A stretch of 64,000 nt of DNA from Natrialbaceae archaeon Tc-Br11_E2g14 (GCA_001564275.1 LKND01000004.1:2419-66418); one strand, 5' to 3'. Counted from the first letter of the stretch, positions 24,959 to 33,849 are shown. The notes: generated by a model not told the origin, from the letters alone. Translations and numbers: made by a program.

Positions 24959-25351
24959 ATGAGTGAGAGTTCGGCCACCGAGACCGTCGTCGTCAGGACG
25001 TACGTCCCAGCGTATCAAAAATCGCGCTGGGAGTCCCACGCAGACGACCTCGAGATGAGCCAGTCCGAGTATATCAGAACCATGGTACAAGCGGGGCGAA
25101 AGGGGTTCGAATCCGACGACGAGGAACCCCGTTCTCCGGACGCTACCCCTGGGGGTAGCGACCTCGAAACACAGGTCCTCGACTTGCTTTCTTCCGGCAC
25201 GTACAATTGGGAAGAATTATTGGCCACCGTAAGCGACGATATCGAAGGCCAACTCGAGGATGCCCTCGATACGCTGCAAGCTCAGGATCAGGTTCGGTAC
25301 AGCGGTCGCCACGGTGGGTACGTCCGGACGGGTGAGACGGATGGCAACTGA
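24959..25351 (+). CDS. DUF5805-like protein (RHH-like N-terminus, winged-helix-like C-terminus)
   Basis: VVRTYVPAYQK...MSQSEYIRTMVQAGR; overlaps the xerA start. Confidence 0.8.
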   Translation: MSESSATETVVVRTYVPAYQKSRWESHADDLEMSQSEYIRTMVQAGRKGFESDDEEPRSPDATPGGSDLETQVLDLLSSGTYNWEELLATVSDDIEGQLEDALDTLQAQDQVRYSGRHGGYVRTGETDGN

Positions 25352-26381
25352 GGCCGGTGCCAGCGAGGTCGCTCCCGAGGACCCCATTGGGTACTTCCTC
25401 GAGGAACAGGAGTTCCACGGCAAGAGTGAACGGACCCTCGAAGCCTACGAGCGAGTGCTCAGACGGTTCGAGACCTTCGTCGAGACCGAACACGACGTGA
25501 GCCCCGCGAGGGCCGGTCGCCGTGAGTGTATGGCCTGGGTACACTCACTCCGGGGCACCCTCGAGACCAGCACGATCGCCACCTACGCCTCCTACGTCCA
25601 CCGGTTTTACGAGTACATGACCCGTGTGGAGGCGTTCGACGGCAATCCGATGTCCCTCGTGATGGAGGAGATGGGCGAATCGATCGAGACGAACCCCACG
25701 CGCCGGGAGATCACGGTCCCGGAGATGCGATCCTTTGTCGGTTCGATCGCGCATCCACTCGAGCGAGCGGTGATCGTCACCCTGTTGAAAACCGGCATGC
25801 GGGTGGGTGAACTCTGCAATCTCGATCTACAGGATTGTCACTTCGATACGGGGCGTGTCGACCTCGAGTGGACGCCACGAATCCAACTCGAGCACCGACC
25901 ACGATCGCTATACGTGGCCGACGAACCGGCCGTCGGGACGGTCGTCAACGGAGAGGAGCGAACGGCCTCGAACAAGCGAAAACGCCCGACGGTGGTCCCC
26001 GTCGACGGGGAGTTACAGGCGGCCCTCGAGCCGTGGCTCGCCATCCGCCCGGACCCGGTGTCACCTGCCGATCCGCTATTCCTCGACACGGGCGACAGCT
26101 GGGGGGAGCGCCTCGAGCCCTCGGACGTACGCTATATCGTCGAGCGCCATGCCCGGCGGGAGGGCTGGTATCGAACTGGCGGTGGCGCGAGTGAGAACGT
26201 GACGCCCCATTACTTCCGGCACTTTTTCACGACCCATCTTCGTGATCGGACGGGCGACCGGGGTGTGGTAAAGTACCTGCGAGGGGACGTTGCGAACGAC
26301 GTCATCGACACCTATACCCACGACTGGGGCGATCAGGTGCGGTCGGTCTACGAGTCGAACGTGTACTCGATCGTGCCGTAG
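25341..26381 (+). CDS. xerA: Tyrosine recombinase, XerA/XerC-like
   Basis: TGMRVGEL (R), SNKRK (K), PHYFRH (HxxR) and DTYTH (Y). Confidence 0.85.
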   Translation: MATEAGASEVAPEDPIGYFLEEQEFHGKSERTLEAYERVLRRFETFVETEHDVSPARAGRRECMAWVHSLRGTLETSTIATYASYVHRFYEYMTRVEAFDGNPMSLVMEEMGESIETNPTRREITVPEMRSFVGSIAHPLERAVIVTLLKTGMRVGELCNLDLQDCHFDTGRVDLEWTPRIQLEHRPRSLYVADEPAVGTVVNGEERTASNKRKRPTVVPVDGELQAALEPWLAIRPDPVSPADPLFLDTGDSWGERLEPSDVRYIVERHARREGWYRTGGGASENVTPHYFRHFFTTHLRDRTGDRGVVKYLRGDVANDVIDTYTHDWGDQVRSVYESNVYSIVP

Positions 26382-26925: not shown

Positions 26926-28278
26926 TTAGCGATCGAGTTTTCCCGCGAGTACCTTTGAAGCGGTGAGAATTGGATCCCAAACAGGACTAAACGGGGGTGC
27001 GTACGCCAGATCGAGGTTCTGGAGTTCGGAGACGGTTACCCCGGTCGTCACGGCGGTCGCAACCGTATCGATGCGCTTTGTGCCCTCGCGGCCAACAACA
27101 CTCCCACCCAATACGCGTTCGGTCTCTCGGTCGGCAACCAGTGTGACAGTGAGATCCGTTGCACCGGGATAGTAATGGGGCCGCGTCGGTGTTTCGATAG
27201 TCACATCGATCGGGTCGAAACCTGCCTCGCGGGCACGATCCAAATCGATTATGCCAGTTCGTGCCGCACCCATTTCGAACGCCTTGACGATCGCCGTGCC
27301 AGCCGTACCGCCGGTTGGGGTCGGGTCACCGGCGACGGTGCTTCCGATGGCCCGACCGGCGCGGTTTGCGGTCAACGCCAGGGGGACGTGATCTGGTTCG
27401 CCGGTCACGACGTTCGTGTCTTCGGCGCAGTCCCCAGCAGCGTAGATGTCCGTGACGTTCGTTTGGCCGTACTCGTCGGTCGCAATCGCACCCGTCGGCC
27501 CAAGTTCGATCCCGGCTTCCACGGCAAGTTCGACGGTGGGCTCGACGCCAACACCGACGATGACGAGATCCGCTGGCACCGCGGGCCCGTCCCCGAGTTC
27601 GACCGATTCGACCGCGTCCCCGCCAGCGAATCCCTCGACGGCAGTCTCGAGGTGGAGTTCGACACCCGCTTCGCTGAGGTGGTCCTCGATGATGCGGGCC
27701 GTCGCGTTGCCGAACGGTTGGAGGACGTGTGGGAGCATTTCGAAGATCGAGACGTGAATGTCGCGGTTGATGAGCGCTTCGGCCATCTCGATACCGACGT
27801 AGCCTCCCCCGACGATCGCCGCTGTTTCGGGGTCTCGACTCGAGATGTACGCCTCGATCGCTTTCGCTTCGTGCATCCCCCTGAGCGTAAACACGCCCTC
27901 GAGGTCGATCCCATCGAACGGCGGTTCGATCGCACGAGCGCCAGTCGCGAGCAGAAGATCGCCGTATGGCTGGTCGAACCGTTCGTCGTTCGTCTCGACG
28001 GTGACGGTCTCGGTCCCGGGATCGATCGCGACGACCTCGTGGCCCGTTCGGAGGTCGACGTCGCGGTCCTCGCGGAACGCCTCGGGAGTCACGGCGACGA
28101 GGTCCTCGAGGTTCTCGACGGTCCCCTTCACGTAGTAGGGCATCCCACAGGCCGCATACGAGACCCATTTCCCCTTCTCGAAAACGATCACGTCCCGGTC
28201 CGGGTCCTCGCGCTTTGCCTTACTCGCGGCGCTCATTCCGGCTGCGTCTCCGCCAACGATGACGAACGGTGCTGCCAT
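26926..28278 (-). CDS. CoA-disulfide reductase / NADH oxidase family flavoprotein
   Basis: GGDAAG, SYAACGMPY (redox Cys), GGGYVG, YAAGD and DLAYAPPFS. Confidence 0.88.
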   Translation of the reverse strand: MAAPFVIVGGDAAGMSAASKAKREDPDRDVIVFEKGKWVSYAACGMPYYVKGTVENLEDLVAVTPEAFREDRDVDLRTGHEVVAIDPGTETVTVETNDERFDQPYGDLLLATGARAIEPPFDGIDLEGVFTLRGMHEAKAIEAYISSRDPETAAIVGGGYVGIEMAEALINRDIHVSIFEMLPHVLQPFGNATARIIEDHLSEAGVELHLETAVEGFAGGDAVESVELGDGPAVPADLVIVGVGVEPTVELAVEAGIELGPTGAIATDEYGQTNVTDIYAAGDCAEDTNVVTGEPDHVPLALTANRAGRAIGSTVAGDPTPTGGTAGTAIVKAFEMGAARTGIIDLDRAREAGFDPIDVTIETPTRPHYYPGATDLTVTLVADRETERVLGGSVVGREGTKRIDTVATAVTTGVTVSELQNLDLAYAPPFSPVWDPILTASKVLAGKLDR

Positions 28279-28306
28279 GAAAGTCAGTAGGCTCGCGACC
28301 GCATAA

Positions 28307-28331
28307 AGTATTACGCAAAATTCCCAATACT
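28307..28331. promoter_or_regulatory. Operator-like inverted repeat AGTATT-N13-AATACT at the reductase promoter
   Basis: Perfect 6-bp arms overlapping the minus-strand TTTAT TATA box, about 29 bp from the ATG. Confidence 0.6.
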
Positions 28332-28542
28332 AGAGTATCGATTAGGGGCTATCCAGTGACACCGCAAACCGGGTGTCTGGAACACGCATTGGATCGAGAC
28401 ACGCTGACGATGAGATGGGTTTTATTCGACGTGTGCGTCGATTGTGGTGCCCTCCGAGTCGGGTTCGAGAGTCCGATTCGTGCCATACAACATATGCGCT
28501 ATCGTGAGTTCAGGGGCCCCATCCTCTGACAGCTACCAGAGT

Positions 28543-28567
28543 AGTATTGTGCTCTGTGCACAAGTAT
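28543..28567. promoter_or_regulatory. Operator-like site TATTGTGC-N5-GCACAAGT at the HTH gene promoter
   Basis: TTGTGC/GCACAA inverted repeat about 30 bp before ATG 28596. Confidence 0.6.
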
Positions 28568-28595
28568 TATGCCAGTCCGCAGCGTACGTTCGAGT

Positions 28596-29009
28596 ATGAC
28601 TGTTCGGCCGTCGATGACCGATCAGCTAGAACGAGACATGACGTGTGAGGGACTGCTCGAGTGCTTACACGGGCTCAACCGCCTCGACAAGGACTGTTAT
28701 CACGTGGTGGTCGAGAGTGAGGTCCCACTGACGACCGACGAAATCGCTGAGCGGGTCGACCGTGAACGCTCCACCGCCTATCGTTCGATTCAGCGGCTCC
28801 TATCGCGTGGCCTGCTCGAGAAGCAACAGGTCAACTACGACCAGGGTGGGTATTACCACGTTTATTCCTCGACGGATCCTGCACGGATTAGCACCGACAT
28901 GCGACACCGACTCAACGACTGGTATGCGAAGATGGGACAACTCATCCAGGAGTTCGAGGACGAATACGGCTCGTCGACGGACCCCGAATCGACGAACGGG
29001 TCCGACTGA
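28596..29009 (+). CDS. Cys-containing HTH transcriptional regulator (TrmB/MarR-like wHTH)
   Basis: CEGLLEC, LTTDEIAERVDRERSTAYRSIQRL and GGYYHVY. Start 28596 or 28614. Confidence 0.85.
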   Translation: MTVRPSMTDQLERDMTCEGLLECLHGLNRLDKDCYHVVVESEVPLTTDEIAERVDRERSTAYRSIQRLLSRGLLEKQQVNYDQGGYYHVYSSTDPARISTDMRHRLNDWYAKMGQLIQEFEDEYGSSTDPESTNGSD

Positions 29010-29012
29010 ACC

Positions 29013-30278
29013 ATGTCCAGACCCGGATTTTCGCCCGAAATACCTCGGGAACGGCTGGTCGAGACGGCACTCGACCTCGTCGCCTTCGATACGTCGAATC
29101 CGCCCGGCGACACCCGCAAAATCGTCGACTGGATCGAATCGGCACTCACCGACCTCGGCCTCGATACCCAACGGGTGGCGACTGATCCGACGAAACCGAA
29201 CCTGCTTGCGACGCTTCCCGGCGAGGGAACGACGACGCTGCTTTACAGCGGACACCTCGATACGGTTCCATACGATCAGGACGGCTGGTCGTACGACCCG
29301 CTCGGCGAGCGCGTCGGTGAACGGCTCTATGGCAGAGGGACGACTGATATGAAAGGCGGCGTTGCCGCAATGATCGAACTCGCCCGGGCGTACACCGTTG
29401 CCGATCGACGCCCGCCGGTGACACTCGAGTTTGCGTTCGTCAGCGACGAGGAAGTTGCCGGCGAGGCTGGACTACAGGCGGTACTCGACGCAGGTCGGCT
29501 CGTGGCCGACGCCTGCGTGGTCGGCGAACCGACGGGCACCCTCGATACGCCGTCGATCACTGTCGCGGACAAGGGCAGTCTCTGGCTCACACTTGAGGCG
29601 ACCGGTGACGCGGCCCACGGCTCGCGGCCAATGCGCGGCACCAACGCGATCGATGTGCTCTGGGAGGCCCTCGAAACGATTCGGGATCGACTCCGAGACT
29701 ATCCCCTCACAGTCCCCGACGCGGTCGATCCGATTCTCGAGGAGTCGGTCGACTACTACAGCACGTCGATGAACGAAGCGGTGGCTCGACGGCTGTTCGA
29801 CAGACCGACGGTCAACCTCGGCACGATCGACGGTGGGGAGACGATAAACAGCGTCCCACGGTTTGCTCGCGCGGAACTCGACGTTCGACTTCCTCCAGGA
29901 GTCGAAACGAACGCTGTGCTCGGGGACGTCAGGAAGTGGCTCCAGGGGCACGCAGCGACCTCCATCGCCGACGTCAGCTGGAGCATTGGAACGTACGAAC
30001 GGCCCAAATCGCCGCTCGTGGACGCGACGACAGCCGCAGCAACCACGGTCCTCGACGGCCAGATTCACCGACGCAGCGCGACTGGGGGTGGCGATGCGAA
30101 GCGGCTGCGCAACGCTTGCATACCTACGGTGGAGTTCGCAATCGGGTCCGATACGGTTCACGCCTGTGACGAGTACACGACAGTCGAGGCCCTCGAGGCG
30201 ACGGCAGCGGTGTACGCACGTCTCCCGAATGCGCTCACGGATCGTCACGTCGACGAGCCACGACCCCAAATCGAGTAG
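29013..30278 (+). CDS. M20/ArgE-DapE family metallopeptidase
   Basis: GHLDTVP, GRGTTDMKGG, DEE, GEPT and HACDE. Confidence 0.9.
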   Translation: MSRPGFSPEIPRERLVETALDLVAFDTSNPPGDTRKIVDWIESALTDLGLDTQRVATDPTKPNLLATLPGEGTTTLLYSGHLDTVPYDQDGWSYDPLGERVGERLYGRGTTDMKGGVAAMIELARAYTVADRRPPVTLEFAFVSDEEVAGEAGLQAVLDAGRLVADACVVGEPTGTLDTPSITVADKGSLWLTLEATGDAAHGSRPMRGTNAIDVLWEALETIRDRLRDYPLTVPDAVDPILEESVDYYSTSMNEAVARRLFDRPTVNLGTIDGGETINSVPRFARAELDVRLPPGVETNAVLGDVRKWLQGHAATSIADVSWSIGTYERPKSPLVDATTAAATTVLDGQIHRRSATGGGDAKRLRNACIPTVEFAIGSDTVHACDEYTTVEALEATAAVYARLPNALTDRHVDEPRPQIE

Positions 30279-30412
30279 CCATCGAAAGTCGCTGCATACC
30301 TGATCGCCAGACGTATCACCATCAATGGGTGACCCTTCCAGTTCACACTGTAGGTCGAGAGCGTCGCTACCGAAGTGAGTACGCGAACGCGCAATCGAAC
30401 GCCACTCGTTGC

Positions 30413-30531
30413 CTATAGTAACAAGTGAACCGAGTCACACACCCTTCGAGTCGCCTCAGAACCGATTTGTCACCGGTTTTGCGCCATGGTATCGTGAGGG
30501 TGTATGCAATGACGTCCAGTGGCTACGACAG
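30413..30531 (+). mobile_element. Palindromic MITE-like repeat, copy 3
   Basis: CTATAGTAACAAGTGAACCG...CAGTGGCTACGACAG. Confidence 0.8.
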
Positions 30532-30836
30532 TTCCAGTGTTCGGCAACTGCTCAGTTGACCGTTACTCGCGGGAGAAATGTGTGTAACACTCAATCCTTG
30601 AGCCCCTGATCGATCAAGGGACTCCCCTCACTGTTCGAACGTCAGTGAAGCGAGAGCGTGGTTCGATAGCAGCGCTGGTGTTGAGACTGGATATTCGAAT
30701 TGCCACGGGTTGTATTTGCTATCGTCGCCACCAATACGGACCTGTTCGGCAGGGTGTCTTGTATGTTGATCCCAACACTGATAGGCTATCGTCCCCTTCG
30801 ATTCGACATGCAGTCGTTTTCGACGAGGTCGGTTCG

Positions 30837-31955
30837 ATGCTAACGCCGAGAGAACTCCGGGCCACTATCCCGACATTACAGGCGGCGACGTATCTGAACT
30901 ACGGTGCCCACGGACCGAGTCCAACCCGCGTGGTCGAGGCCGCTACGGACGCAGTCCACCGCCACGAGTACGACGTTCCTGCGACTGGCGACCCGTACGA
31001 AACGGCGTTCGGTGAGTTTGACGAAACGCGAAAGCAGGTCGCCTCGTTCATCGGTGCACGACCGGACGAGGTCGCCCTTACAGAGAGTACCTCCGCCGGA
31101 ATCAACGCCATCGCCGGTGCAATCGACTGGCAACCAGGCGATGTCGTCGTTCGTACCGACCTCGAGCATCCGGCTGGGATCCTCCCGTGGCAGCGCCTCG
31201 GCCAGGAGGGGGTCACGGTTCGGACAATTGAAACGAGCGATGGGCGACTCGATCGCGAGGCCTACGCCGAGGCAGTCGCCGACGCGAGACTCGTCTCTTT
31301 CAGCGCCGTTACGTGGACCCACGGGACGAAACTGCCGGTGGCTGAACTCGTCGACATCGCACACGATGCCGGGGCACTCACACTCATCGATGCCGTTCAG
31401 GTTCCGGGGCAACTACCGATGGACGTCACCGGGTGGGGTGCGGATATTGTCGCCGCAGCGGGACACAAGTGGTTGCTCGGTCTCTGGGGGAGTGGGTTCC
31501 TGTACGTCGATGACGACGTTGCTGAGCGACTCGAACCACGGGCTGTCAGCTACCGAAGCGTCGACACGCCCACTGCCGCCGAACCAGCGTTTGCCACGGG
31601 AGCTCGTCGCTTCGAGGTCGGGTCCGCCAACCCTGCCCCGCACGTAGCGCTGCGGGAAGCCATTCGGACGATCGAAGCCGTCGGTCTCGACGCTATCGAG
31701 CACCGAATCCAGGATCTAGCCAGTCGACTGGCATCGAAGGTTCCCGACGACCGCCTGCTGAGTCCCGCGGCTCCCGAGTCGGGTCTCGTAACGATAGACG
31801 TGGATACCCCAGAGGAAACCGTCGACCGGCTCAGTGACGAAGGGATTGTCGTCCGAGCACTGCCGTCTCCGGACGCAATTCGGGTCTCAGTGCACGCCGT
31901 CAACACGGCTGCGGAAATAGACGGGCTGGTCGACGAACTTGTCGATGAGTGGTAA
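30837..31955 (+). CDS. PLP-dependent class V aminotransferase-fold enzyme
   Basis: YLNYGA, TDLEHP, IDAVQ and AGHKW (PLP Lys). Confidence 0.85.
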   Translation: MLTPRELRATIPTLQAATYLNYGAHGPSPTRVVEAATDAVHRHEYDVPATGDPYETAFGEFDETRKQVASFIGARPDEVALTESTSAGINAIAGAIDWQPGDVVVRTDLEHPAGILPWQRLGQEGVTVRTIETSDGRLDREAYAEAVADARLVSFSAVTWTHGTKLPVAELVDIAHDAGALTLIDAVQVPGQLPMDVTGWGADIVAAAGHKWLLGLWGSGFLYVDDDVAERLEPRAVSYRSVDTPTAAEPAFATGARRFEVGSANPAPHVALREAIRTIEAVGLDAIEHRIQDLASRLASKVPDDRLLSPAAPESGLVTIDVDTPEETVDRLSDEGIVVRALPSPDAIRVSVHAVNTAAEIDGLVDELVDEW

Positions 31956-32354
31956 CGGCCCGACTGGCCGATCGACCCACAACGACACTTTCTGACGCTC
32001 CGTTTCAAACGGCTCGCTCCCCCGTTGAGCGTGGTGTTCATTGGACCTACGGAATATTCGTACAGCCCTGGTACCAACGCGGATCCCAGGCCGATTCCTC
32101 AAACGGGTGGTCCATGCGAGATTCACCGAAGACCAAGAAATCAACTCCTACAAGGGCGAAGTTTCATACCTAACACAATACTACCTCGGCGAGAGATCGT
32201 GGTATCTGCCGAGTGCGGGGATCGACTCGACGAGTTTGGGATCGGACATTCGGTTCCCACTTCGAATTTATTGTACCTCGAGGAGTATCCTTCCGATGGG
32301 TATCCGGTCGGCAGATCATCAACCGTCGAGCCGCGCGGTCCAATCAAGGGACCA

Positions 32355-32377
32355 TGTATTGTACAATACACACAAAA
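32355..32377. promoter_or_regulatory. Operator-like site at the trxA promoter (TGTATTGTACAATACA palindrome; TATTG-N11-CAAAA)
   Basis: Perfect 16-bp palindrome immediately upstream of the CCCTTAAA TATA box. Confidence 0.6.
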
Positions 32378-32410
32378 CCCTTAAACCGCTTGGGAGCCTA
32401 CACAGGCGTG

Positions 32411-32770
32411 ATGGCAACTGACGCATACCCCGAACCCAGCGATGACCAGACCGAGAAACCGCTTCACGTCGAGAGTGAGGACCACCTCGACGCAATCGTC
32501 GACGAGCACGACGTCGTGCTGGTGGACTTCTACGCCGATTGGTGTGGTCCCTGTAAGATGCTCGAGCCCGTCCTCGAGGAGCTGGCGCGTGAGACCGAGG
32601 GCGTGATCGCGAAGGTCGATGTCGACGGACTAACGCAGCTCGCTGGTGCCTACGGCGTCCGCGGGGTGCCGACACTCGTGCTCTTTGCGGACGGCGAGCA
32701 GGTGGAACAACACACCGGCGCACTGCCAGGGGATCGACTCCGCGACCTGATCGAAGGATACATCGAATGA
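32411..32770 (+). CDS. trxA: Thioredoxin
   Basis: DFYADWCGPC and VRGVPT. Confidence 0.95.
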   Translation: MATDAYPEPSDDQTEKPLHVESEDHLDAIVDEHDVVLVDFYADWCGPCKMLEPVLEELARETEGVIAKVDVDGLTQLAGAYGVRGVPTLVLFADGEQVEQHTGALPGDRLRDLIEGYIE

Positions 32771-33849
32771 ACGGGGACTCGAACGCACCCGTTCGGGACG
32801 TCGTGATCGTCGGCACCGGCGTCGCCGGCCTCTCGGCTGCAGTCTACGCCGCCCGGGCCGATCTCGAGCCGCTCGTGCTCGAAGGCCCGGAACCGGGTGG
32901 CCAGTTGACGCTGACGACCGACGTCGAGAACTTCCTCGGCTTTCCCGAGGGTGTCGGTGGCATGGAGTTGATCCAGCGCGGGAAAGAACAGGCCTCGCGG
33001 TTCGGTGCCGAGTTCGTCCACGGCACCGTCGCAGACGCGACGCTCGACGATCGACCGTTCGAACTCCACCTCTCGAACGGGGAAACACGCCGAACGCGTG
33101 CACTGATCGTTGCAACTGGGGCCAGTGCCCGCTGGGTCGGTGCCGAAGGCGAGGCCGACTTGATGGGATATGGTGTCTCGACCTGTGCAACCTGTGACGG
33201 CGCGTTCCATCGCGGCGACGACGTCCTCGTCATCGGCGGCGGCGACTCCGCAATGGAGGAGGCACTGTTCCTCACGAAGTTCGCCGACAGCGTCACTGTC
33301 GTTCACCGTCGGGATGAACTTCGCGCCTCCGAGGTGATGGCTAAACGCGCTCGTGGCCACGACGGGGTCTCGTTTCGCTGGAACAGCGAACTCCTCGAAA
33401 TCCATGGCTCGAAGGATGAGGGCGTCACCGGTGTCACCCTGATCAGCCATCCCGACGGCTACCCAAGGCAGAAACTCGAGGCGAGTCCGACAGGCGATGG
33501 CCCGGCTGATCGGGCGGCGAAGACACGCGAGACTGGAGGGATCGAACGCGAGTTCCTCGATGTCGGTGGGATCTTTTACGGCGTCGGCCACGTCCCGAAT
33601 ACGGACTTTCTCGAGGGGACAGCGGTCGAACTGGCCGACACTGGGCATATCGAAACCCAAGCGGGAATGACGACGGAGACGACCCTCGACGGTGTCTTCG
33701 CGGCGGGTGACGTGATGGACCCTGACTACCGACAGGCGATCACCTCGGCCGGTACTGGGAGCATGGCTGCCCTCGATGCCGAGGACTGGCTCGAACAGCC
33801 TGCGGCCAGCGGGTCGATAGCGGCTTCCGAAGCGATAGCCGACGACTGA
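32767..33849 (+). CDS. trxB: Thioredoxin-disulfide reductase
   Basis: GGQL, CATCDG, GGGDSAMEEA and FAAGD...RQAITSAG. Confidence 0.95.
   Translation: MNGDSNAPVRDVVIVGTGVAGLSAAVYAARADLEPLVLEGPEPGGQLTLTTDVENFLGFPEGVGGMELIQRGKEQASRFGAEFVHGTVADATLDDRPFELHLSNGETRRTRALIVATGASARWVGAEGEADLMGYGVSTCATCDGAFHRGDDVLVIGGGDSAMEEALFLTKFADSVTVVHRRDELRASEVMAKRARGHDGVSFRWNSELLEIHGSKDEGVTGVTLISHPDGYPRQKLEASPTGDGPADRAAKTRETGGIEREFLDVGGIFYGVGHVPNTDFLEGTAVELADTGHIETQAGMTTETTLDGVFAAGDVMDPDYRQAITSAGTGSMAALDAEDWLEQPAASGSIAASEAIADD

What the first reader, a model, noticed from the sequence alone, without database searches (positions are those of the whole stretch)
26926..33849. Putative thiol/persulfide redox regulon with a shared TATTG-N11-CAATA operator
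Seen: three promoters carry equally spaced sites at BRE/TATA. They are 28307-28331 (reverse: TATTG-N11-TAATA, CoA-disulfide reductase), 28545-28565 (TATTG-N11-CAAGT, the HTH gene itself) and 32357-32377 (TATTG-N11-CAAAA, trxA-trxB). The regulator has an N-terminal C-x5-C plus a third Cys. Known: CoADR-family and Trx/TrxR enzymes reduce disulfides and persulfides, and Cys-based wHTH sensors exist in other families. Inference: an autoregulated Cys-switch repressor controlling a local sulfur-redox regulon that I cannot match to a characterised haloarchaeal system.
Basis: partly seen in the sequence, partly recalled or inferred. Interest (0 to 1): 0.65.

Follow-up and report, generated by a model that had tools for sequence, protein, structure and literature searches.

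The report
Haloarchaeal sulfur-redox regulon and its operator
A small cysteine-bearing DNA-binding protein found in nearly all salt-loving archaea sits beside thioredoxin and disulfide-reductase genes whose promoters share a conserved 23-base site, which defines a testable sulfur and thiol stress regulon for a regulator family that has never been studied.

Summary
All three sites exist as written, and each lies at the same distance upstream of a TATA box.

Comparative genomics shows they are not chance:
- The element (G)TATTG-N11-CAAWA(C) is conserved at a fixed offset upstream of the regulator gene in 79 of 79 named haloarchaeal loci.
- It is also conserved upstream of trxA in 19 loci and upstream of most CoADR-like orthologues.
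- Outside the window it recurs upstream of DUF7512-TauE, rhodanese-MBL plus YeeE/YedE, VKOR and Usp genes.
- In the window's own genome, GTATTG-N11-CAATAC with at most one mismatch occurs four times, and all four are at such promoters.

The regulator is a single-domain TrmB/Lrs14-type winged helix protein with three invariant cysteines and one invariant histidine. By Cys numbering it matches the uncharacterised Haloferax volcanii HVO_1360, a 28%-identical paralogue of the thiol sensor OxsR. It is not OxsR itself.

The regulon is genome-wide and pan-haloarchaeal rather than local. Its gene content resembles bacterial persulfide regulons such as CstR and BigR. The repressor sign and the cysteine switch remain inferences. 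The window regulator's own site is the weakest.

This scan reached the same regulon earlier on other genomes.

The parts
26926..28278 (-). CoA-disulfide-reductase-like flavoprotein (450 aa) of the single-Cys CoADR/Nox type. It carries the motif SYAACGMPYY.
   Evidence: Pfam Pyr_redox_2, Pyr_redox and Pyr_redox_dim. The best NCBIfam match is CoA-disulfide reductase at 432 bits, below the 579-bit cut-off. Orthologues of 59-85% identity occur in 30 loci.
28303..28330 (-). CoADR promoter. It holds the split inverted repeat GTATTG-N11-TAATAC (28330 to 28308) abutting the TATA box CTTTAT (28308 to 28303). The start codon lies 27 nt downstream.
   Evidence: Sequence. The combined PWM scores it 20.7 bits. 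Orthologue promoters conserve RTATTG-N9-CGAAATACTTTA at -51. It is one of only four GTATTG-N11-CAATAC hits with at most 1 mismatch in the genome.
28545..28570 (+). Promoter of the window's regulator copy. It holds a degenerate operator (TATTG-N11-CAAGT, containing TTGTGC-N5-GCACAA) followed by the TATA box TATTAT at 28565-28570.
   Evidence: Sequence. The closest orthologues carry GTATTGTGCAATAC or GTATTGTACGATAC at the same place. The PWM score is only 8.5-12.6 bits because the spacer is 1 nt shorter and the right half is lost.
28596..29009 (+). Single-domain TrmB/Lrs14-type winged-helix regulator (137 aa) with C17, C23, H25 and C34. It is a second paralogue of the core haloarchaeal family that matches HVO_1360.
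   Evidence: Pfam TrmB PF01978. PDB sequence and fold neighbours are 3R0A and 6CMV. The three Cys are invariant in 120 of 120 homologues. The family is found in 57 of 61 related genomes. The core copy lies at C129:38388-38792 with 68% identity.
29013..30278 (+). M20 (ArgE/DapE-type) metallohydrolase that starts 3 nt after the regulator's stop codon and is probably co-transcribed with it.
   Evidence: Pfam and NCBIfam matches. The same regulator-M20 pair occurs in Salinadaptatus halalkaliphilus.
30757..30777 (+). Weak operator-like site (TCTTG-N11-CAACA) 81 nt upstream of the SufS-like gene.
   Evidence: The PWM scores it 10.6 bits, and it matches the consensus with 2 mismatches. Stronger sites lie upstream of the orthologous gene in Natrialba magadii (24.2 bits, also 81 nt upstream of its start) and in Salinadaptatus (22.1 bits).
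30837..31955 (+). Class-V aminotransferase-fold protein that resembles a SufS-type cysteine desulfurase (372 aa). The true start is ATG 30837, not GTG 30645.
   Evidence: Pfam Aminotran_5. NCBIfam sufS scores 158 bits, below its cut-off. The reading frame was checked, and the N. magadii orthologue is also 372 aa.
32356..32385 (+). trxA-trxB promoter. It holds the perfect palindrome GTATTGTACAATAC (32356-32369), which also reads as GTATTG-N11-CAAAAC, followed by the TATA box CTTAAA (32380-32385).
   Evidence: It is the best PWM hit in the whole genome. It scores 37.0 bits with a model built only from regulator promoters, against 20.9 bits for the next hit not in the training set, and 48.1 bits with the combined model. 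Nearly identical sites lie 50-53 nt upstream of the trxA start in 19 loci.
32411..32770 (+). Thioredoxin TrxA (119 aa, WCGPC active site).
   Evidence: Pfam Thioredoxin. NCBIfam thioredoxin scores 102.7 bits, above its cut-off.
32767..33849 (+). Thioredoxin-disulfide reductase TrxB (360 aa). Its start overlaps the trxA stop.
   Evidence: Pfam match. NCBIfam TRX_reduct scores 323 bits, just below its 343-bit cut-off.

Best explanation
The window holds part of a pan-haloarchaeal sulfur and thiol redox regulon. Its transcription factor is a small dimeric TrmB/Lrs14-type winged-helix protein with three invariant cysteines and one invariant histidine in its N-terminal helices. By Cys numbering the family matches the uncharacterised Haloferax volcanii HVO_1360. 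This genome has two copies: the core copy on another contig and an extra copy in the window.

The factor most likely binds an inverted repeat of the half-site GTATTG. The repeat is either split (GTATTG-N11-CAATAC, 23 bp) or compact (GTATTG-N2-CAATAC, 14 bp). It abuts the BRE/TATA box or ends about 10 bp upstream of it.

In the window the site precedes the CoADR-like reductase gene, the regulator-M20 pair, weakly the SufS-like gene, and trxA-trxB. Elsewhere in the genome it precedes DUF7512-TauE (sulfite exporter type), rhodanese-MBL (persulfide-dioxygenase type) with two YeeE/YedE half-transporters, VKOR, a Usp gene and the core regulator gene.

Shown here: the element, its fixed position, its conservation, its genome-wide specificity, and the gene content of the regulon.

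Inferred:
- That this regulator, and not another factor, binds the element. This rests on the element lying at the regulator's own promoter in every genome examined and on conserved gene neighbourhood.
- That it acts mainly as a repressor by occluding TFB/TBP. This rests on sites that touch strong BRE/TATA boxes. I put it at about 60%.
- That oxidation or persulfidation of its cysteines changes DNA binding. This rests on analogy with OxsR C24 and with the bacterial persulfide sensors CstR, BigR and SqrR. I put persulfide or reactive sulfur at about 55% and general disulfide stress at about 30%.
For: Regulator promoters. A block of about 30 bp, gagATTGyrCAATATTCaCACAACCCTTATA, is conserved upstream of 33 regulator orthologues while the flanks diverge. 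In 79 of 79 named loci there is a site of at least 15 bits at a fixed offset, 95-103 nt upstream of the first Cys codon. These loci include Natrialbaceae, Halorubrum, Haloparvum, Halobellus, Halogeometricum, Halorussus, Halobaculum, Haloglomus and Halococcaceae.

Genome-wide specificity. A PWM built only from regulator promoters ranks the window's trx promoter first among 6.3 million positions. The pattern ATTGYRYRAYN5CANAA gives 69 hits against 5 for the reversed control in 61 genomes. Downstream of these hits lie trxA (19 loci), DUF7512-TauE (about 11 loci) or the regulator gene.

Other promoter classes, none of them used to build the regulator-promoter model. CoADR promoters were found starting from the protein and conserve RTATTG-N9-CGAAATAC-TTTA at -51. 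Rhodanese-MBL promoters (RTATTG at -59 to -61 in 24 of 30) and VKOR promoters (GTATTGGG-N-GCACAATAC-TTATGT) were not used for any model.

Spacing. In the own genome, GTATTG-N11-CAATAC with at most 1 mismatch gives 4 hits, all at regulon promoters. N2 gives 2 hits, both in the regulon. Other spacings give 0-3 hits, none in the regulon.

Functions and neighbourhood. Functions were assigned. The genes cluster in several genomes. In Natrialba magadii pNMAG01, exact TATTG-N11-CAATA sites precede TusA-DsrE-CoADR and Usp.

The protein. The three Cys are invariant in 120 of 120 homologues, and H25 is invariant in a 40-sequence alignment. The second Cys aligns with MM_1094 C17, which the OxsR paper equates with OxsR C24. 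The fold neighbours are 3R0A and AbfR2. The recognition helix RSTAYRSIQRL is identical in both copies in this genome.
Against: - No binding, expression or redox data exist for this family. The OxsR paper only mentions HVO_1360 as a possible heterodimer partner.
- In H. volcanii, OxsR ChIP-seq peaks lie at a CoADR homologue, thioredoxins and TrxR, so another factor could occupy these promoters.
- The half-site arrangement is not uniform. Spacings of N2 and N13 occur between GTATT and AATAC, and the sites sit at two different distances from TATA. One rigid dimer does not easily explain this.
- In regulator promoters the right half (CACAA) may simply be the BRE.
- The window copy's own site and the SufS-like site are weak (8.5-12.6 and 10.6 bits).
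- Identity with HVO_1360 rests on Cys numbering, arCOG class and size, not on a sequence comparison.
- The related genomes are not independent samples.
Confidence: 0.75

Rival explanations
1. The conserved element is real, but a different transcription factor binds it, for example OxsR, RosR or an unidentified protein. The adjacent TrmB-like gene would then be just one more target of that factor.
For: In H. volcanii, OxsR ChIP-seq high peaks lie 5' of a CoADR homologue (HVO_A0618), thioredoxins (HVO_1342, HVO_1244) and TrxR (HVO_1031). Many OxsR-bound sites lack its CG-rich motif. This genome has a separate OxsR-like gene (L003).
Against: The element lies at the regulator's own promoter in 79 of 79 loci. 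The regulator gene sits inside the gene island in many genera. That pattern is typical of an autoregulated local factor. The DNA shown to bind OxsR is CG-rich (CGGnCGnGCG), whereas this element is AT-rich.
Confidence: 0.12
2. The regulator and operator are as proposed, but the sensor is a metal site or an iron-sulfur cluster held by the invariant Cys17, Cys23, His25 and Cys34. It would then work like the Rrf2 regulators IscR and NsrR, sensing Fe-S status, oxygen or nitrosative stress rather than persulfide or disulfide formation.
For: Three invariant Cys plus an invariant His occur in a C-x5-C-x-H-x8-C arrangement. From my own knowledge, IscR ligates a [2Fe-2S] cluster with three Cys and one His, including C-x5-C spacings. 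The regulon includes a SufS-like desulfurase.
Against: There is no Rrf2 or other cluster-binding domain match. The equivalent cysteines in MM_1094 and OxsR form intersubunit disulfides. The regulon content (TauE, rhodanese-MBL, YeeE/YedE, TusA/DsrE, CoADR) is that of bacterial persulfide regulons, not of Fe-S assembly.
Confidence: 0.15
3. The block is a specialised core promoter, that is, an extended BRE/TATA read by one of the several haloarchaeal TFB/TBP paralogues. It would not be an operator for a dedicated regulator.
For: The element always sits at or within about 10 bp of the TATA box, and its right half overlaps the BRE position. From my own knowledge, haloarchaea have multiple TFB and TBP paralogues with promoter preferences.
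Against: The conserved GTATTG lies 20-30 bp upstream of TATA, beyond the reach of the TFB-BRE contact. In rhodanese-MBL promoters the whole repeat is displaced 9-10 bp further upstream, while a separate BRE/TATA is conserved. The inverted-repeat symmetry and the N11 specificity fit a dimeric factor.
Confidence: 0.05
4. The three window sites are a chance recurrence of an AT-rich pentamer in AT-rich promoters.
For: Within the window alone the statistics are modest: 6 matches against 2.2 expected with up to 2 mismatches, and 3 of 100 shuffles reach 6. The second half-sites differ among the three sites.
Against: Cross-genome conservation at fixed offsets and genome-wide specificity exclude chance.
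Confidence: 0.01

Closest known systems
OxsR (HVO_2970) of Haloferax volcanii, a thiol-based single-domain TrmB-family transcription factor (PMC9426492)
   Same: It has the same Pfam family (PF01978), the same single winged-helix domain, and the same arCOG02242/Lrs14-type fold with 3R0A and 6CMV as best structural relatives. It has a conserved N-terminal Cys at the position equivalent to OxsR C24. Thiol-relay genes (Trx, TrxR, CoADR homologue) are among its targets.
   Different: It is a different orthologous group: about 134-137 aa with 3 Cys and 1 His, against 123 aa with 1 Cys. The paper reports 28% identity for HVO_1360. The element is AT-rich (GTATTG-N11-CAATAC) and touches BRE/TATA, whereas OxsR uses the CG-rich CGGnCGnGCG. 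This genome also has a separate OxsR-like gene. No experiments exist on this family.
HVO_1360 (UniProt D4GXQ1) of Haloferax volcanii, an uncharacterised arCOG02242 protein named in PMC9426492 as a possible OxsR partner
   Same: Core family members here have Cys at positions 15 and 21 (MANSMAEQLQQDMECEGLLEC...), exactly the residues the paper cites. They are also small TrmB-family proteins.
   Different: The sequence itself could not be fetched for a direct comparison. The window copy is an extra paralogue, 68% identical to this genome's core copy. No operator or regulon has been published for HVO_1360 in the library searched.
Bacterial persulfide-sensing repressors: CstR (Staphylococcus aureus, Enterococcus faecalis), BigR (Xylella, Agrobacterium) and SqrR (Rhodobacter). 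This comparison is from my own knowledge.
   Same: The regulon content is similar: rhodanese and persulfide-dioxygenase (MBL) fusions, TauE, YeeE/YedE-type membrane proteins, TusA/DsrE carriers and a CoADR-type (CoA persulfide) reductase. The regulators are autoregulated local factors with conserved Cys pairs.
   Different: The folds are unrelated (CsoR-like four-helix bundle, or ArsR/SmtB). The system here is archaeal, with an operator placed against BRE/TATA. It also controls Trx/TrxR and VKOR. The sensing chemistry is untested.
SurR of Thermococcales, an archaeal redox-switch regulator of the elemental-sulfur response. This comparison is from my own knowledge.
   Same: It is an archaeal winged-helix factor with a Cys switch. 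It controls its own gene, a protein disulfide oxidoreductase and a CoADR-family sulfur reductase, from sites near BRE/TATA.
   Different: SurR is a larger ArsR-like protein with a CxxC motif and a GTTn3AAC site. It is not homologous at the family level, and its regulon centres on hydrogenases.

Membership tests
TrmB family, single winged-helix domain (PF01978; arCOG02242 / Lrs14 group) | The Pfam TrmB HTH domain is the only domain | tested here: met
   PF01978 matches at E 4.6e-14 with 52.4 bits, above the 25.6-bit cut-off, over residues 34-104 of the 146-aa reading. There is no ligand-binding domain.
TrmB family, single winged-helix domain (PF01978; arCOG02242 / Lrs14 group) | A fold like MM_1094 (3R0A) or AbfR2 (6CMV): a winged helix flanked by N- and C-terminal helices | tested here: met
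   phmmer against PDB finds 3r0a at E 4.6e-9 and 6cmv at E 2.9e-5. The AF2 model has pLDDT 80, and Foldseek ranks 3r0a (TM 0.66-0.74) and then 6cmv first. NCBIfam Sta1 and Lrs14 hits fall below their cut-offs.
OxsR (HVO_2970) orthologous group | A conserved Cys equivalent to OxsR C24 in the N-terminal helix | tested here: met
   The second Cys of C-x5-C aligns with the MM_1094 Cys that the paper equates with OxsR C24. It is invariant in 120 of 120 homologues.
OxsR (HVO_2970) orthologous group | Orthology: about 123 aa, a single Cys, and one copy per genome that corresponds to HVO_2970 | tested here: not met
   The family is 130-137 aa with three invariant Cys. The same genome has a separate, distant OxsR-like gene (24% identity, L003). 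The paper treats HVO_1360 (C15, C21) as a 28%-identical paralogue.
OxsR (HVO_2970) orthologous group | A CG-rich binding motif, CGGnCGnGCG | tested here: not met
   The conserved element is AT-rich, GTATTG-N11-CAATAC. The OxsR motif is described.
OxsR (HVO_2970) orthologous group | DNA binding that depends on an intersubunit disulfide | not testable with these tools
   This needs purified protein, non-reducing SDS-PAGE and EMSA in high salt.
HVO_1360 orthologous group | Cys at positions 15 and 21, a small TrmB protein, arCOG02242 | tested here: inconclusive
   Core orthologues read M-A-N-S-M-A-E-Q-L-Q-Q-D-M-E-C15-E-G-L-L-E-C21, matching the residues named in PMC9426492.
Bacterial persulfide sensors (CstR, BigR, SqrR) | A CsoR-like or ArsR/SmtB fold | tested here: not met
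   Pfam and fold searches give TrmB, Lrs14 and MarR-like winged helices only. The system is therefore an analogue, not a member.
Bacterial persulfide sensors (CstR, BigR, SqrR) | A regulon of persulfide dioxygenase and rhodanese, TauE, sulfur carriers and CoA-persulfide-type reductase | tested here: met
   Sites lie upstream of rhodanese-MBL plus YeeE/YedE, DUF7512-TauE, CoADR and TusA-DsrE-CoADR.
Bacterial persulfide sensors (CstR, BigR, SqrR) | Cys-Cys di-, tri- or tetrasulfide formation releases the protein from DNA | not testable with these tools
   This needs biochemistry and mass spectrometry.
Rrf2 (IscR/NsrR) Fe-S regulators | An Rrf2 domain with a C-terminal three-Cys cluster site | tested here: not met
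   There is no Rrf2 match. The Cys and His residues here are N-terminal.

The most novel reading that the evidence does not exclude
The HVO_1360 family would be the first archaeal sensor of reactive sulfur species (persulfide or polysulfide). It would be a pan-haloarchaeal Lrs14/TrmB-type repressor whose three cysteines form a sulfur bridge. Release from GTATTG-N11-CAATAC operators would then switch on a cst-like detoxification set (rhodanese-MBL dioxygenase, YeeE/YedE, TauE, TusA/DsrE, CoADR) together with Trx/TrxR and VKOR. It would have evolved independently of bacterial CstR, BigR and SqrR.
Probability: 0.4. Interest if true: 0.75.

Novelty: new variant of a known kind. Interest (0 to 1): 0.6.

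Why it matters
Only a handful of archaeal redox-sensing transcription factors are characterised, among them OxsR, RosR, SurR, MsvR and PerR. No persulfide or sulfide sensor is known in archaea in the literature searched.

This work gives an uncharacterised, near-universal haloarchaeal regulator three things:
- a precise 23-bp operator;
- a predicted regulon;
- a clear candidate signal.

All of these can be tested directly in Haloferax volcanii by deletion, ChIP-seq, and EMSA with Cys mutants.

It may also explain why many OxsR ChIP peaks at thioredoxin and CoADR promoters lack the OxsR motif. For genome annotation, it links DUF7512, TauE, rhodanese-MBL, VKOR, Usp, an M20 hydrolase and a SufS-like enzyme into one stress response.

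Tried and rejected
- I first read the recombinase gene at 25260-26381 as a sign that the window copy sits in a mobile island.
- I considered that the CoADR-like gene might be HvFdR (HVO_2345; PMC13640641). HvFdR is 433 aa with a rubredoxin-reductase-like C-terminus, whereas this protein has the CoADR/Nox dimerisation domain and active-site Cys, so I rejected it.
- The first PWM, built from regulator promoters only, scored the CoADR site at 16.5 bits, inside the noise range. CoADR membership was established from orthologue promoters instead.
- A model with a single rigid half-site spacing does not fit all classes. Both N2 and N11 arrangements occur, at two distances from TATA. I left this open.
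- H. volcanii chromosomal loci (HVO_1360, HVO_1342, HVO_1031) could not be fetched by name. The Hfx. mediterranei pHM500 CoADR promoter shows only a weak variant at 18.2 bits.
- AlphaFold gave a monomer only, with low confidence in the N-terminal Cys region (pLDDT 55-73). It therefore says nothing about Cys-Cys distances.

Full report
**1. What is in the window**

The genome is a 64% GC haloarchaeon of the family Natrialbaceae. The assembly has 136 contigs and is 91% complete. The region holds the following genes:
- a CoADR/Nox-type flavoprotein on the minus strand, 26926-28278, with the active-site motif SYAACGMPYY;
- a single-domain TrmB-type winged-helix regulator;
- an M20 hydrolase that starts 3 nt after the regulator's stop, 29013-30278;
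- a SufS-like class-V aminotransferase-fold protein;
- trxA, 32411-32770;
- trxB, 32767-33849.

Two gene starts need correction. The regulator most likely begins at ATG 28596 and is 137 aa long. This equals the product on record (P0002), and its closest orthologues share the start context cgttcgagtATG. The SufS-like gene begins at ATG 30837 and encodes 372 aa, the length of its Natrialba magadii orthologue.

**2. The observation**

Each starts 20-23 nt upstream of a TATA-like box, and each TATA box is about 27-30 nt from the start codon. The geometry is therefore equal at all three promoters, and the transcripts are probably leaderless.

Within the window alone the statistics are modest. TATTG-N11-CAA gives 2 matches against 0.11 expected. 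The full consensus with up to 2 mismatches gives 6 matches against 2.2 expected. Four of those six lie in promoters of this region, including a weak one before the SufS-like gene.

**3. Phylogenetic footprinting**

The regulator family is nearly universal. It is found in 57 of 61 related genomes and in 552 loci of the species-representative collection.

*Regulator promoters.* Upstream of 33 orthologues, a block of about 30 bp, gagATTGyrCAATATTCaCACAACCCTTATA, stands out from unalignable flanks. In 79 of 79 named loci a site of at least 15 bits sits at a fixed offset from the first Cys codon, and 77 of them score at least 20 bits. The named loci include Natrialbaceae, Halorubrum, Haloparvum, Halobellus, Halogeometricum, Halorussus, Halobaculum, Haloglomus and Halococcaceae.

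*trx promoters.* A PWM built only from these regulator promoters, leaving out the window's own, was scanned over the 6.3 million positions of the window's genome. It puts the window's trx promoter first at 37.0 bits. The core regulator promoter comes second, and the next hit scores 20.9 bits. The pattern ATTGYRYRAYN5CANAA gives 69 matches against 5 for the reversed control in 61 genomes. Downstream of these matches lie trxA orthologues (19 loci, 50-53 nt from the pattern start to the start codon), DUF7512-TauE (about 11 loci) or the regulator gene.

*CoADR promoters.* Starting from the CoADR protein instead of the motif, orthologue promoters (59-85% protein identity) conserve RTATTG-N9-CGAAATAC-TTTA at -51. 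This is the inverted repeat GTATT-N13-AATAC abutting the TATA box.

*Two classes not used for any model.* Rhodanese-MBL promoters carry RTATTG at -59 to -61 in 24 of 30 loci, as GTATTG-N11-(G/A)AATAC followed by a separate conserved BRE/TATA.

**4. Specificity in the window's own genome**

The combined PWM lists these sites:

| Promoter | Score (bits) |
|---|---|
| trxAB | 48.1 |
| core regulator | 33.8 |
| DUF7512-TauE | 33.4 |
| VKOR | 23.5 |
| Usp | 21.6 |
| CoADR | 20.7 |
| rhodanese-MBL with two YeeE/YedE halves | 19.9 |

A plain scan for GTATTG-Nx-CAATAC with at most one mismatch was run for x from 0 to 14. At N11 it gives four hits, and all four are regulon promoters: VKOR, CoADR, trxAB and rhodanese-MBL. 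At N2 it gives two hits, both in the regulon, and the trx site is a perfect 14-bp palindrome. All other spacings give 0-3 hits, none in the regulon.

**5. Gene neighbourhood**

The genes cluster in many genera:
- CoADR lies divergent from rhodanese-MBL.
- DUF7512-TauE lies directly upstream of the regulator gene.
- VKOR lies next to a regulator copy.

These arrangements are seen.

The contig of Salinadaptatus halalkaliphilus is syntenic with the window. Its order is regulator-M20, VKOR, the SufS-like gene, a second regulator copy, then trxAB, and each unit has a site.

On Natrialba magadii pNMAG01, exact TATTG-N11-CAATA sites precede TusA-DsrE-CoADR and a Usp gene. PWM sites precede DUF7512-TauE, the class-V aminotransferase and a thioredoxin-family gene.

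**6. The regulator**

It is a TrmB/Lrs14-type protein. PF01978 is its only domain. The best solved relatives by sequence and by predicted fold are MM_1094 (3R0A) and AbfR2 (6CMV), which are the same templates used for OxsR.

C17, C23 and C34 are invariant in 120 of 120 homologues. H25 is invariant in a 40-sequence alignment. The second Cys aligns with the MM_1094 Cys that the OxsR paper equates with OxsR C24.

The protein is not OxsR. OxsR is 123 aa, has one Cys and uses a CG-rich motif, and this genome has a separate OxsR-like gene.

Core family members have Cys at positions 15 and 21. These are the residues that PMC9426492 gives for HVO_1360, an uncharacterised paralogue 28% identical to OxsR and proposed only as a possible OxsR partner. 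A library search for HVO_1360 found no functional study.

This genome has two copies, 68% identical, with an identical recognition helix.

**7. Mechanism**

*Shown:* the element, its position, its conservation and the gene set.

*Inferred:* the family binds the element as a dimer. When a site abuts a strong BRE/TATA box, binding would most likely block TFB/TBP and so repress transcription. The rhodanese-MBL sites lie further upstream and leave activation possible.

The sensing step is inferred from OxsR and from the gene content of the regulon. That content (persulfide-dioxygenase-type rhodanese-MBL, TauE, YeeE/YedE, TusA/DsrE, CoADR) mirrors bacterial CstR and BigR regulons. I therefore favour reactive sulfur species over general disulfide stress as the signal. 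The invariant 3 Cys plus His arrangement leaves a metal or Fe-S sensor as a live rival.

**8. Limits**

- The window copy's own site is degenerate compared with its orthologues.
- The SufS-like site is weak.
- Identity with HVO_1360 is by numbering, not by alignment.
- The related genomes are not independent samples.

**9. Prior notes**

This scan had already noted the same kind of island and motif on other genomes (e1-2505578, e1-2635933, e1-2635934, e1-3347863, e1-2506703). I consulted them only after the analysis above, and they agree with it.

Noticed in passing
G000 contig C129:36702-38792 (L135): The core locus of the same system: operator, a 49-aa DUF7512 membrane protein, a TauE/SafE permease, a second operator and the core regulator copy. 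A Usp gene lies divergent from it, behind a near-perfect TATTG-N11-CAATA site.
   Followed up: yes
G000 contig C129:15048-17440 (L134): A rhodanese-MBL fusion (400 aa) is followed by two half-size YeeE/YedE 'sulphur transport' proteins. Its promoter has two overlapping left half-sites (15048 and 15057) that share one right half-site.
   Followed up: yes
VKOR promoters, e.g. L173, L176, L179: A second conserved AGTATTGTATG overlaps the VKOR start codon in several genera. It may be a second operator at the transcription start.
   Followed up: no
window 28285-28289, 32397-32401 and the equivalent positions in relatives: A conserved CTAC or GTAC box lies about 13-15 nt downstream of the TATA box in all promoter classes. 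It may simply be the usual haloarchaeal -10/-11 element, or it may be part of the regulated promoter.
   Followed up: no
window 30645-30836: The long GTG-start reading of the SufS-like gene is probably an artefact. The conserved promoter lies inside it, and the true start is ATG 30837.
   Followed up: yes
G000 contig C34:5273-5833 (L003): A separate OxsR-like single-domain TrmB gene, with one N-terminal Cys in the context VMSC, lies next to a threonine-synthase-like gene.
   Followed up: partly
L190 (Natrialba magadii pNMAG01 88013-113362) and other megaplasmids listed: The sulfur-redox island often lies on haloarchaeal megaplasmids, and it is flanked by several universal stress protein genes, SCO and TlpA-type proteins.
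   Followed up: partly
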